A stretch of DNA of 64,000 bases from the IMG/VR virus record IMGVR_UViG_3300032257_000479, positions 105,506 to 169,505 of that record; one strand, written 5' to 3'. Positions within the stretch are counted from its first letter, which is position 1. Each line of letters begins with the position of its first letter. The DNA is from a virus. The notes beneath the pieces were generated by a model, which was not told the origin of the DNA, did no database searches, and saw nothing but the letters and a program-made list of their open reading frames with translations. Both the position numbers and the translations under genes were made by a program. Below, one piece after another: positions 1,871 through 35,932 of the stretch.

Positions 1871-2081
1871 TTTCTATTATCTTTAATTTCTCATAATAAT
1901 TATTGTCTTCTGATAAATGATCCATAGCTATCTCTCTCGCTATTTTCTCATCGTTAGTGTGTTCTAACTCTATCTTTATCCCTGCTTTTAACTTTTCTTT
2001 ATCAAAATCAGATGGACTTAACTCATCAGCAATTCCGCCGTTCATTCTATCTTTATAATTTTGAGATTGTATTATTTTCAT
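1863..2081 (-). CDS. small phage protein (DUF5661-like)
   Basis: GIKIELEHT...AREIAMDHLSED..YY.KL motif, common in large phages. Confidence 0.65.
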   Translation of the reverse strand: MKIIQSQNYKDRMNGGIADELSPSDFDKEKLKAGIKIELEHTNDEKIAREIAMDHLSEDNNYYEKLKIIENE

Positions 2082-2452
2082 TGCTTGTTGTATTTAAAAC
2101 CTTTTCTATCTAAAGCATACTCAAAATAATCTGTATTATGCTTATCTACATTAACCGCTACGCCCCTGTTGCTGCTTTCTTCTAGGTTTATTTGAGCGCC
2201 ATATCTTGATCCATAATTCTTAAGCCACTCTTCTATCTCTTTTGTATTTGACATTAACTCGTATTTTACCGTGTAAATATCTTCAACTTTAGGAACTAAC
2301 TTGTTTTTCCTTATATCAAAAAATGGAACTATTTTTCCACCCTCAAACTCCAGCATTTTATTATTGTCTGAATCATACCATAAAAGCTTATTATTCACCT
2401 TCTCTTTGATAGGTGTTTGCTTTTTTGATATATCAATAATATAGGTTGTCAC
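2078..2452 (-). CDS. hypothetical protein
   Basis: ORF packed with neighbours by start/stop overlaps. Confidence 0.7.
   Translation of the reverse strand: MTTYIIDISKKQTPIKEKVNNKLLWYDSDNNKMLEFEGGKIVPFFDIRKNKLVPKVEDIYTVKYELMSNTKEIEEWLKNYGSRYGAQINLEESSNRGVAVNVDKHNTDYFEYALDRKGFKYNKQ

Positions 2453-28074: not shown

Positions 28075-28077
<3 letters not shown>
28015..28077. repeat. 19-bp direct repeat ATGATCGATAAGTGAATTA x2
   Basis: Identical copies at 28015-28033 and 28059-28077. Confidence 0.85.
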
Positions 28078-30072
<1,995 letters not shown>

Positions 30073-30732
30073 TTACTCAGGAAAGAACCTAAACGATGGT
30101 TTTATTCCCAATTCTCTGTAGAATACAGCTACGCTGTCATAAACAGCCTTCCTTATTTCATCATATCCAACAGGTAAATGTTTTTTAACAAGAACTGTTG
30201 AAGTTTTTATGTATCTCATATCCAGTTTGTATTTTACAAAATCTTCATCATTTACTTTAGATGGATGAACTCCACAAAGAATAACTATCTCGCTGGTATC
30301 AGAAAAGAAGGATAATGCTCCGAGAGCAATCTTTTCAGGCTGGTCAATAACAAGTAAATCTGTTTGTTTGAAGAAGTTTTTAACTCTTCCGTACAATTCA
30401 TTTAGTTCTAAACTTTCTTTTCCAGTAATAACTGAATCGTTGTATACAGGAAATACTTTAGGATAAAACTCAGCTTTAGGATTTAAATGTGATACATTTT
30501 CATCAAAACGAGACTGTTCAAAATCTACAGACATAAATCTATCTACATTGTTGTGCAAGAAAGCTGATGTCTTGGGAGAAGATCCTAAAACAAGGACAGA
30601 GCCTGGCTTGAAAGAGTTTTCTATTCCTTTTACGATACCTAAATTAGATTCTTTCTTAAGACGATCAATAGCATGAGCTATTTTTGTTCCTCTTGAATCG
30701 TTTGCTATAGCCATAGTATTATTTACCTCCAA
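30073..30732 (-). CDS. hypothetical protein (possibly degenerate Rossmann/methyltransferase-like)
   Basis: VLVLGS and DLLVID strands. Start more likely at MAIAND, after a GGAGG SD. Confidence 0.6.
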   Translation of the reverse strand: MEVNNTMAIANDSRGTKIAHAIDRLKKESNLGIVKGIENSFKPGSVLVLGSSPKTSAFLHNNVDRFMSVDFEQSRFDENVSHLNPKAEFYPKVFPVYNDSVITGKESLELNELYGRVKNFFKQTDLLVIDQPEKIALGALSFFSDTSEIVILCGVHPSKVNDEDFVKYKLDMRYIKTSTVLVKKHLPVGYDEIRKAVYDSVAVFYRELGIKPSFRFFPE

Positions 30733-30874
30733 AAATACATTTTGCTGTAATCAAATACTTATTTGAACAGGCAGAGTCCTTTGTTTTGACACTTTTTTGA
30801 TGTACCTTGGCATTGGGGAAAGGCTGTATTTCTATTGCTCTTTATTATATTTCATATATAATGGGCTTTTAATG

Positions 30875-31512
30875 CTGCGGTCTATCGACCTTGCATTCGA
30901 TACAAACCTCTGCGAGGTCCGTATCGTATTATTTTTTATTCTTTTCTTTTTTATCTTATCTGGGCTTAATGTTTATGCACAAGGACACTTTTCAGCCAAA
31001 TGTTGTCTTGTTTGATAAACAGTAGAACATAGGCTGCTCCGCATAGTAGGTACTAATATAGAATTAGAAAATACTATGGCGTTGCTGGGTTTGATTTTTT
31101 AAGGTCGGGTTCACCCAGCTTTCAGCCAGTCACCGCTTCGATTCGCTTAGATACAAGATGAAAAGTGTTCAAAAGCCCTGTAAATAGCTATCTCCTGCTA
31201 AAGGAGAAAGAGAGATGAGTCATGATGCTTCCTTTGACTCATACCATGTATATCCGAAGATATGATGTATTTTGTCGCTTAATACAAACGCTCGACGTAA
31301 AGCAACCGAGAATGCTACCCAATTTATGCTTCGTATACAAAGGTTGCGGCCCACCTATTTCCTTCTCGCATTCATGGAGTAAGCTAAGCAATAGCAAACC
31401 ATGAACTATGTCACTAGGGTACATCGTTCCGTTTCTCTTTATAAATGTACTCTTACACGAAAAAACCGCCTCCAGGTTACACATTAGGAGAGCGGCAAGG
31501 ATTAATTCCTTG
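30875..31512 (-). ncRNA. candidate large structured non-coding RNA
   Basis: More than 10 stems in a gene-free gap that is GC-rich relative to its flanks; cUUCGg tetraloop and G-U pairs on the minus strand. Confidence 0.55.
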
Positions 31513-32062
31513 AAAACAAATGCAAGTTAGTGGGCTTAAAAATAAAGCATTGTTTTCTTATATCTATTATTCGTCATATTGGTCACTGTTAAAAGAAGCG
31601 TACACGAAAAACCCTAAAACCTGCAATCTATTAATTATAATTATAAAGCATAATAAGAATTGGGCATATTGGGAATTTCTAAAAATATACTGCCAAAATA
31701 TAGCATAAATCAATCGAATATTGAGCTATTTGATACTTATTGGGTAAATAGTGCTAGATTTTAGAAAACAACCCCTAGTTAATACTTACTTTAAAATACG
31801 TTATTAGTATATCTAGATTCCAGCTAAAATATAGAGCTTTATGGCCATATCTAGCAGATTTTGTGTCAAATCAGCCTTAATTGAGCGATTTTCTAACTTC
31901 ATTTCTTGTTTTTCTTCTAAAATCCGGCAAAATAAGCTATACTTAAGTCATTTTATTAATTATAATAAATAAACCCCATTTAAATGCTTTAAACAGGGTT
32001 TATCGATTTGAATGCTCAATATATGGCTAATAATGGGTATTTTTTACTGGTTATTAAATACT

Positions 32063-32566
32063 TTAATGATTCTTACTGATAAAATTATGATAAAATATCT
32101 GGAAGGGCTCATCTTCGCTTAAAACATCTATTGGAGAAACAGAATTAATAAACCAACCGAAAAGGCCAGGACTATATAAAGACTCTACAACAACAACCGA
32201 GTTCGAGTCAGCATATTTAGCGTCAATTATGGCTTCATTTACAATGTAGCAGAAATCATTTTCTATGACACCCTTATGCCCCTTGTTCATTTTGCTTGCT
32301 CTATACATTACACATGGGACATTTTTACCAATATTGTTATTGATCCAAATAAAGCCTTCAGCCGCTGCCGCTTCATCTAATATTATAGACTCTAATTGTC
32401 CTAGCTTATTTGGTTTTTCTTTCGATAAAATGAAATGAACATTTATTCCACATATATTGAACACTTTTTCCCGCGGAGAAAAAAGGCTCAAAGACAGCTT
32501 CCATTTATCTAATATTGATAGTTTGTTATTCAATAGAATTCGCCACAACAATGGAAACCTGAACAT
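32063..32566 (-). CDS. hypothetical protein
   Basis: Last gene of a three-ORF run. Confidence 0.55.
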   Translation of the reverse strand: MFRFPLLWRILLNNKLSILDKWKLSLSLFSPREKVFNICGINVHFILSKEKPNKLGQLESIILDEAAAAEGFIWINNNIGKNVPCVMYRASKMNKGHKGVIENDFCYIVNEAIIDAKYADSNSVVVVESLYSPGLFGWFINSVSPIDVLSEDEPFQIFYHNFISKNH

Positions 32567-35719: not shown

Positions 35720-35721
35720 AA

Positions 35722-35795
35722 TTCCCCGCAGTGGATTTGAACCACTAGCCTTCGATCCCAAAAAATCAATGCTCTTCCAATTGAGCTAACGGGGA
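35722..35795 (-). tRNA. tRNA, Gln(UUG)-like, with an 8-nt anticodon loop (UUUUUGGG); CCA not encoded
   Basis: TCCCCGT TA GCTC AATTGGAA GAGC A TTGAT TTTTTGGG ATCGA AGGCT AGTGG TTCAAAT CCACT GCGGGGA A folds into a complete cloverleaf. Confidence 0.85.
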
Positions 35796-35932
35796 ACTAG
35801 GTAGCCATAACTGTATAATGCCTTTTCTTCGCGACCTACCAATAGAAGCAAAAAGGCAAATATGTACTACCTAGATTTATTTATTTTCGACCAATTATAG
35901 GCCTCATGAAATGTAAACACACGTGAATTCTT

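What the first reader, a model, noticed from the sequence alone, without database searches (positions are those of the whole stretch)
30875..31512. About 640 nt of back-to-back hairpins in a gene-free gap: candidate novel large ncRNA
Seen (plus-strand coordinates): stems at 30879-30890; 30898-30926 (13 bp, two G-U pairs on minus); about 30971-31020; 31042-48/31072-78; 31084-90/31113-19; 31191-31207; 31215-22/31235-42; 31250-63 (AUAUC-UUCG-GAUAU on minus); 31371-77/31399-405; 31419-24/31445-50; 31466-31495 (followed by U6 on minus); 31496-31512. The region is more GC-rich than its flanks and has no credible ORF. The cUUCGg loop and G-U pairs point to a minus-strand transcript. I see no RNase P, tmRNA or group II intron signature. 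Known: phages carry large structured RNAs such as GOLLD and ROOL. Inference: a member of such a class, or a new one.
Basis: partly seen in the sequence, partly recalled or inferred. Interest (0 to 1): 0.75.

Follow-up and report, generated by a model that had tools for sequence, protein, structure and literature searches.

The report
New large structured RNA of huge phages
The gene-free gap holds a real, roughly 665-nt pseudoknotted RNA gene on the minus strand. It belongs to a previously undescribed family found once per genome in uncultured phages of about 470-500 kb, usually just upstream of their DNA ligase gene, and its function is unknown.

Summary
The stretch lies in the largest non-coding gap of a 169.5-kb virus contig, is more G+C-rich than its flanks, and opens no frame under four genetic codes. 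It folds better than shuffles (z -4.4; -5.2 for the refined 30790-31458).

It is a conserved RNA. I found relatives in six clades of huge-phage contigs (467-499 kb where complete), one copy per genome.
- Between the window and its nearest relative the RNA is 90-92% identical, against 74% for ligA DNA and 75% for the spacer.
- A covariance model built from two clades only finds the other four. On 11 distinct sequences 95.6% of cells pair, and 17 of 23 pairs show changes on both sides. Slid controls give 31-46% paired.
- A pseudoknot co-varies in all six clades.
- G-U pairs and UUCG/GNRA loops put the RNA on the minus strand, the same strand as its neighbours.
- No Rfam 15 family matches in any clade.

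In five clades the RNA lies upstream of NAD-dependent ligA. In the sixth it stands alone between two terminators, 170 kb from ligA, which argues for a stand-alone RNA rather than a mere leader.

The function is unknown. I read it as a new class of large ornate phage RNA. The scan had noted only this same stretch before, on no other DNA.

The parts
30795..31458 (-). The RNA as I delimit it, about 665 nt. It runs from the conserved 5' motif GUGWAAR to the conserved 3' motif (CAAUGSS followed by a purine-rich block).
   Evidence: Conserved in six clades. In clade F the homologous unit is bounded by terminators and is about 670 nt long. Fold z -5.22.
31460..31495 (-). Hairpin (31466-31495) plus U6 (31460-31465): terminator-like module directly 5' of the RNA.
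   Evidence: Variants in L002 and L003 keep the stem through U-G pairs. A hairpin plus U-tract sits at the same place in clades B, E and F.
31496..31512 (-). Small hairpin upstream of the terminator-like module, conserved in clade A only.
31451..31458 (-). GUGWAAR motif at the 5' edge, present in all six clades. It is either the first transcribed or processed bases, or a promoter element.
   Evidence: The same U-run plus motif occurs once more in this genome, at about 31609.
31419..31450 (-). Helix H1.
31371..31411 (-). Conserved ACAUAG (31406-31411) and helix H2 (31371-77 with 31399-405).
   Evidence: A hairpin lies at the same place after ACAUAG in clades A-D, with unrelated stem sequences.
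31250..31356 (-). Helices Ha (31341-56), Hb (31327-39), H5 (31291-310), H6 (31266-86) and H7 (31250-63, UUCG loop).
   Evidence: changes on both sides in Ha, H5 and H6 (two of those in H6 within clade A). H7 is capped by UUCG, GUAA or GCGA in clades A, B and C. Coordinates.
31215..31242 (-). Helix H8 (7 bp).
   Evidence: 2 pairs changed on both sides. Within clade C, L007 and L011 differ by two further compensated pairs.
31084..31207 (-). Most conserved core: H9 (31191-207), H10 (31186-90 with 31123-27), H11 (31152-82), invariant junction (31128-48), and Hi (31084-119) with its conserved A-rich loop.
   Evidence: Model R1, and counts on A8 and A11.
30985..31080 (-). H12 (31041-80, inner hairpin 31053-67), the H14 domain (30993-31036), and the 3' strand of pseudoknot PK1 (30985-92), which pairs with 31161-68 in the loop of H11.
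   Evidence: H14a and PK1 change on both sides between clades.
30927..30961 (-). A-rich, apparently unpaired linker. It is present in every clade, with variable length.
30872..30926 (-). 3' hairpins H16 (30898-926) and H17 (30872-96: outer stem, purine-rich internal loop, inner stem 30879-90).
   Evidence: Both are kept with different sequences in clade B. An H17-like hairpin with a GAA loop occurs in clades C and E.
30844..30872 (-). Sigma-70-like promoter match inside an A+T-rich insert that only part of clade A carries.
   Evidence: 10 of 12 matches. The insert is absent from L004 and from clades C and D. Its function is not shown.
30073..30714 (-). Downstream 213-aa gene with a methyltransferase-like fold and no family hit.
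28075..29985 (-). NAD-dependent DNA ligase, the neighbour conserved in five of six clades.

Best explanation
SHOWN: window 30795-31458, minus strand, encodes a member of a conserved, single-copy family of RNAs about 650-700 nt long. The fold has many helices and at least one long-range pseudoknot. The family occurs in uncultured huge phages.

INFERRED: it is a stable RNA that acts as a folded particle, either a scaffold or partner of a protein or an RNA with chemistry of its own. It is not merely an mRNA leader. It starts directly behind a terminator-like hairpin. In most lineages transcription then continues into the replication and nucleotide-metabolism genes headed by ligA, so the RNA would be released by processing, perhaps at the A-rich linker. 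In one lineage it is a free-standing gene with its own terminator. I do not know what it binds or does. The ligase is the only conserved neighbour and so the first candidate partner.
For: Family and selection:
- Relatives come in six clades, with one copy per genome, including two complete genomes of 488 and 499 kb with terminal repeats.
- The RNA is the best conserved DNA of the locus: 90-92% identity, against 84% for the 213-aa gene, 74% for ligA and 75% for the spacer.

Structure:
- On a sequence-only MAFFT alignment of clades A and B, 80 hand-drawn pairs are 94.9% paired. Of these, 17 change on both sides, against 4.9 +/- 1.8 in shuffles and 0-5 when the partner is slid.
- Model R1 was built from A and B only. 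It finds C, D and E at 77-97 bits and F at 34 bits. The sequence-only model scores C and D 30-39 bits lower and aligns them only in part.
- On 11 distinct sequences 95.6% of cells pair and 17 of 23 pairs change on both sides, against 31-46% paired when slid.
- Pseudoknot PK1 and helix H14a are kept by different sequences in all six clades.

Strand:
- 21 G-U cells; pairing drops to 87% if the opposite strand is read. Loops are UUCG and GNRA.

Stand-alone nature:
- In clade F the unit lies between a terminator and a bidirectional terminator, faces a convergent gene, and ligA is 170 kb away.
Against: - There are no expression data. No promoter was identified, and there is no room for one between the upstream U-tract and the first helix.
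- In clades A-E there is no terminator between the RNA and the next ORF, and conservation runs almost to the ribosome-binding site. That fits a leader equally well.
- Clade F rests on one locus and a 34-bit match, although PK1, H14a and the loop motifs are also present there.
- The phages are related (LigA 52-67% identical), so shared gene order and part of the shuffle statistics reflect common descent.
- The 5' and 3' domains were compared between clades by eye only.
Confidence: 0.55

Rival explanations
1. It is a giant cis-acting leader of the ligA operon. The folded RNA would sense a metabolite, protein or RNA and set transcription, stability or translation of the downstream genes.
For: - Same strand and directly upstream of ligA in five clades, although the intervening gene differs: a 213-aa gene in A and B, a 71-78-aa ORF in C-E.
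- No terminator between the RNA and that ORF.
- The conserved motif block at 30774-30818 lies close to the ribosome-binding site.
Against: - In clade F the RNA has its own terminator, no co-directional gene behind it, and ligA far away.
- About 650 nt with more than 15 helices and a pseudoknot is far beyond known riboswitch or attenuator leaders.
- I found no alternative terminator/antiterminator pairing and no pairing that sequesters the SD.
- In clade E about 2 kb and several ORFs separate the RNA from ligA.
Confidence: 0.25
2. It is a replication-origin transcript. A structured RNA would form a persistent hybrid and prime DNA synthesis, as ColE1 RNA II does, which would explain its place next to replication genes.
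For: It lies at the head of a ligase and nucleotide-metabolism module, is single-copy, and is flanked by A+T-rich DNA.
Against: - Cumulative GC skew falls monotonically through the locus with no switch.
- There are no iterons or repeats.
- The constraint is on RNA pairing, including tetraloops and a pseudoknot, more than on any DNA feature.
- Clade F sits far from ligA.
Confidence: 0.07
3. It is a mobile or selfish RNA element, or its remnant: an ORF-less intron, a guide RNA of a transposon nuclease, or a satellite.
For: The genomic position differs in clade F. In L008 a TnpB gene lies just upstream.
Against: - No match to group I or group II intron models or to HEARO and other guide-RNA models.
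- There are no split exons.
- It is single-copy in every genome.
- TnpB is present at only one of the loci.
- None of the genome contigs matches to the 18-nt core motif carried the flanking core, so they are chance hits.
Confidence: 0.03

Closest known systems
ROOL RNA (Rfam RF03087) and GOLLD RNA (RF01998)
   Same: These are large RNAs (about 580 and 800 nt) with many junctions and pseudoknots, often carried by phages or prophages, with unknown biochemical function (PMC5737381, read). Cryo-EM shows RNA-only multimers (PMC12286853; abstract only, seen).
   Different: - Neither covariance model matches in any clade.
- The hosts are uncultured phages of 470-500 kb rather than Lactobacillales, rumen or lake bacteria and their prophages.
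- The context is ligA, not tRNA clusters; the nearest tRNA is 4.2 kb away.
- Nothing is known here about multimerisation.
OLE RNA with OapA (and, more loosely, HEARO/omega RNAs with IscB or TnpB)
   Same: Each is a large conserved RNA kept next to one particular protein gene on the same strand, apparently co-transcribed, and the two form a ribonucleoprotein. This is the precedent for reading the ligA linkage as partnership.
   Different: - There is no sequence or model match.
- The neighbour is a DNA ligase, for which no RNA partner is known.
- The linkage is broken in clade F.
Large structured mRNA leaders (T-box, cobalamin riboswitch, ribosomal-protein leaders)
   Same: Same position and orientation relative to a conserved downstream operon, with no terminator in between.
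   Different: It is three to six times longer, no expression platform was recognised, and one lineage has it as a terminated stand-alone unit.

Membership tests
GOLLD (RF01998) / ROOL (RF03087) | Match to the family's covariance model (sequence plus structure) | tested here: not met
   cmscan with permissive filters: nothing up to E = 10 in window 30600-32200. Nothing up to E = 5 or 1 in loci of clades A-F.
GOLLD / ROOL | Frequent position beside tRNA genes, in phages or prophages | tested here: inconclusive
   The host is a phage. The only tRNA in the window is 4.2 kb away. The RNA's direct neighbours are protein genes.
Group I / group II introns, RNase P RNA, tmRNA, OLE, HEARO | Match to the Rfam model; for tmRNA and tRNA also ARAGORN | tested here: not met
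   There are no flanking exon halves.
Structured non-coding RNA (generic) | Base pairs maintained by compensatory change in homologues | tested here: met
Structured non-coding RNA (generic) | Is transcribed and accumulates | not testable with these tools
   No transcript data are available for these uncultured phages.
cis-regulatory leader of ligA | Always upstream of, and co-directional with, the regulated gene | tested here: not met
   Met in clades A-E. Not met in clade F.
cis-regulatory leader of ligA | Expression platform (alternative terminator or SD-masking helix) | tested here: inconclusive
   No terminator lies between the RNA and the ORF. I did not search exhaustively for SD-masking pairings.

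The most novel reading that the evidence does not exclude
The RNA is the RNA subunit of a ligase-linked ribonucleoprotein, or a ribozyme in its own right. That would make it a new functional class of large catalytic or scaffold RNA encoded by huge phages and tied to DNA joining, replication or nucleic-acid repair.
Probability: 0.2. Interest if true: 0.95.

Novelty: new variant of a known kind. Interest (0 to 1): 0.8.

Why it matters
Large, intricately folded RNAs are rare in bacteria and phages. [quoted passage not shown] Each new class has pointed to unexpected biology, and several still lack a function.

This one has features of an RNA doing something sophisticated:
- invariant junction nucleotides;
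- a co-varying pseudoknot;
- stronger conservation than the neighbouring proteins;
- one copy per half-megabase genome.

Its link to a DNA ligase is unlike the context of any known large RNA. It gives experimenters a defined 665-nt transcript for folding, cryo-EM, ligand and protein-binding tests. It also gives annotators a marker for a lineage of uncultured huge phages.

Tried and rejected
- Recoded stop codons hiding a gene: rejected.
- DNA relatives among 50,697 deposited phages: none. The closest cultured LigA is only about 30% identical.
- Protein-pattern scans of viral contigs with the 213-aa gene and with LigA alone: nothing.
- Scans with the gene-proximal motif and a clade-A core motif: nothing.
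- The 18-nt core motif (window 31122-31139) in one genome per prokaryote species: 11 hits, all lacking the flanking core, so chance.
- RNAalifold on the all-clade MAFFT alignment recovered only part of the fold, because hairpins with unrelated sequences are misaligned. It also proposed a long-range helix between the H5/H6 linker and the 3' CAAUGSS motif. That helix fits poorly in clade B and falls in a different element in clade C, so I do not claim it.
- A covariance model of the whole core (396 columns) was not attempted, because the tool description puts calibration at 4-8 minutes already for 190 positions and refuses forecasts over 6 minutes. Only a 131-nt model was built.
- My first automatic pseudoknot script picked the wrong loop; it was redone.
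- GC skew shows no origin-like switch.
- LigA relatives at 42-46% identity: no RNA within 2.5 kb upstream. Three of those whole records, including a complete 263-kb one, have none at all.
- PHROGs and Pfam give nothing for the small neighbouring ORFs.
The A6 helix coordinates (Ha to H14) were then taken from the alignment and structure file. The remaining coordinates (terminator module, H1, H2, PK1, linker, H16, H17, 3' motif) were counted by hand from the sequence.

Full report
WHAT IS THERE

The window is the right-hand 64 kb of a 169.5-kb IMG/VR virus contig that CheckV rates 25% complete. The contig is 94.5% coding by a simple ORF cover. The gap 30715-32062 is its largest non-coding stretch. 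The gap lies between a 167-aa gene (32063-32566) and a 213-aa gene (30073-30714) that is followed by an NAD-dependent DNA ligase and an IMPDH/GMP-reductase-like gene. All of these are on the minus strand.

The stretch is G+C-richer than its flanks. No ORF longer than 81 aa exists, and reading TAG, TGA or TAA as sense changes nothing. My refined interval, 30790-31458 minus, folds at z = -5.2. Rfam 15 has nothing here even at E = 10.

RELATIVES

The 213-aa neighbour has seven relatives in the protein collection. Their contigs carry the same long gene-free stretch upstream: L002 (a 467-kb scaffold), L003, L004, L005 and L006.

Against L002, DNA identity by region is:
- RNA: 90-92%
- 213-aa gene: 84%
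- A+T-rich spacer: 75%
- ligA: 74%
- upstream gene: 72.5%

The non-coding stretch is therefore the most constrained DNA of the locus. L005, whose neighbour protein is only 53% identical, still aligns over the core and shows stems rebuilt with other letters.

An 18-nt invariant core word (window 31122-31139) was scanned through the viral and metagenome collections. Two half-overlapping variants of it were scanned through viral contigs only. This gave clade C (L007 in a 488-kb genome, L008, L009, L011, L012, L020) and clade D (L042). The other hits lack the flanking core and are chance. The same word in one genome per prokaryote species gave chance hits only.

A scan for LigA relatives, followed by the covariance model, added two clades:
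- Clade E (L055/L070), a complete 498.6-kb genome with terminal repeats.
- Clade F (L071), from a whole-record search of a 494-kb record.

Every genome searched whole has exactly one convincing copy. LigA relatives at 42-46% identity have no copy within 2.5 kb upstream. Three such whole records, one of them complete, have none.

STRUCTURE AND COVARIATION

The spacing of conserved words is almost constant between clades A-C: ACAUAG, the Ha region, UAGCY, the invariant junction, the 3' strand of Hi, the second GGCUG, and CAAUGSS.

1. I drew 80 pairs in 14 helices by hand on a sequence-only MAFFT alignment of clades A and B. They are 94.9% paired. Of them, 17 changed on both sides, against 4.9 +/- 1.8 in shuffles and 0-5 when the 3' partner is slid by 1-3 columns. 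Slid versions pair only 33-43%.

2. I then built a 131-nt covariance model (H9, H10, H11, Hi) from clades A and B only, and a sequence-only twin.
- The structured model finds clades C and D at 89-97 bits over its full length.
- The twin reaches 54-61 bits and aligns C only from position 35 or 36.
- The gain is the same as for the seed sequences, so the pairs are as well kept in clades the model never saw.

3. On the final alignment of 12 sequences (11 distinct, six clades), 95.6% of cells pair and 17 of 23 pairs show changes on both sides. The covariation score is 0.67, against 0.29 shuffled and 0.06-0.14 slid. This alignment is fitted to the model and the phages are related. Both inflate the shuffle test, which makes the slid controls the fairer comparison.

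4. Outside the model:
- H2, H7, H8, H12 and H14a sit at fixed places between conserved words, with unrelated stem sequences between clades.
- H7 is capped by UUCG in A, GUAA in B and GCGA in C.
- H8 differs by two compensated pairs even within clade C.

5. A pseudoknot joins the loop of H11 (31161-31168) to the bases just 3' of H14a (30985-30992). It is 6-11 bp long in every clade, with different sequences. It is stronger than all 500 shuffles in C, D and E, and stronger than all but 1-13% of them in A, B and F.

6. H10 never changes on both sides except once, so it is only weakly supported.

STRAND

The helices hold 21 G-U cells in the core alignment and 18 in the A/B alignment. Read on the other strand, pairing falls from 95.6% to 87.3%. 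With the tetraloops, this fixes the minus strand, the same strand as the neighbouring genes. That is wrong.

ENDS

5' end. In clades A, B, E and F a strong hairpin with a U-tract stands immediately before a conserved GUGWAAR word. Clades C and D have the word but a divergent small gene instead of the hairpin. No room is left for a promoter, so the start is unresolved. The possibilities are read-through, processing or an unrecognised phage promoter.

3' end. An A-rich unpaired linker follows the core, then peripheral hairpins that differ between clades, then the CAAUGSS block.

In clade F the unit runs from the upstream terminator (L071 1260-1283) to a bidirectional terminator (1928-1954) that faces a convergent gene, about 670 nt in all. 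In clades A-E no terminator separates the RNA from the next ORF. In part of clade A an A+T-rich insert with a promoter-like match (30844-30872) precedes the last conserved block.

CONTEXT AND FUNCTION

Downstream, on the same strand, the clades carry:
- A and B: a 213-aa gene, followed in clade A by NAD-dependent ligA. The L005 contig (clade B) ends right after the 215-aa gene, so nothing is known further downstream there.
- C and D: a 71-78-aa ORF, then ligA.
- E: an ORF that by eye resembles the C/D small ORF, then about 1.5 kb more, then ligA.
- F: nothing co-directional, with ligA 170 kb away.

Upstream genes differ between clades. The ligase is thus the one recurrent neighbour. The phages are related (LigA 52-67% identical), so part of this is inheritance. 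There is no GC-skew switch at the locus.

I conclude that the fold, not the position, is what is conserved, and that the RNA most likely works as a folded particle. Whether it also affects ligA expression in cis remains open.

My odds are:
- stand-alone functional RNA: 0.55
- pure leader: 0.25
- origin transcript: 0.07
- mobile-element remnant: 0.03
- remainder unassigned

COMPARISON AND NOVELTY

By size and ornateness it belongs with ROOL, GOLLD and OLE (PMC5737381; PMC12286853). It matches none of their models, and none of the intron, RNase P or tmRNA models, in any clade. Three full-text searches found no description of a large RNA linked to ligA or to huge phages. I cannot exclude an unpublished or non-indexed description.

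LIMITS

- There are only 11 distinct sequences.
- Only a 131-nt model was built.
- Cross-clade comparison of the 5' and 3' domains was by eye.
- Clade F rests on a single locus.
- There are no expression data.

Noticed in passing
window 30073-30714 (-): The 213-aa gene between the RNA and ligA has no Pfam or PHROGs hit. Its AlphaFold model (pLDDT 80) resembles class I SAM-dependent methyltransferases of the catechol-O-methyltransferase / tRNA methyltransferase TrmR type (Foldseek E about 4e-4, TM 0.45-0.50). Its true start is the ATG at 30714, behind a GGAGG at 30726-30730.
   Followed up: partly
window 35721-35796 (-): ARAGORN calls a tRNA of undetermined identity with a four-base anticodon (tttg), which implies an 8-nt anticodon loop. 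It abuts a nucleotidyltransferase / cREC / ATPase gene set that is also syntenic in L002.
   Followed up: no
window 31513-32062 (-): This is a 550-nt A+T-rich (27-30% G+C) spacer upstream of the RNA. Blocks of it are conserved in L002 and L003, with no ORF. It holds a strong terminator at 31968-32004 and a second copy of the U-run plus CGUGUA word at about 31609, which has only two occurrences in the genome. It could hold promoters or a small RNA ending at the 31466-95 hairpin.
   Followed up: partly
window 29985-30021 (-): The longest ligA ORF starts at 30021. Alignment with relatives begins at the Met encoded at 29985, which is probably the real start.
   Followed up: partly
L008 7443-8606 (+): In one clade C phage a TnpB (IS605 OrfB, Cas12f-like) gene sits just upstream of the RNA's 5' flank. 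It is absent from the other loci.
   Followed up: no
L070 996-1163 (+); L071 1035-1255 (+): In clades E and F the gene directly upstream of the RNA is a small, extremely acidic (Asp/Glu-rich) ORF of about 55-73 aa. It ends at the terminator-like hairpin that precedes the RNA.
   Followed up: no
L007 1347-1583; L042 5615-5830; L070 about 1934-2157 (+): A conserved 71-78-aa ORF of unknown family lies between the RNA and ligA in clades C and D (46% identical between C and D). A similar-looking ORF sits at the same place in clade E (by eye only). Clades A and B have the methyltransferase-like gene there instead.
   Followed up: partly
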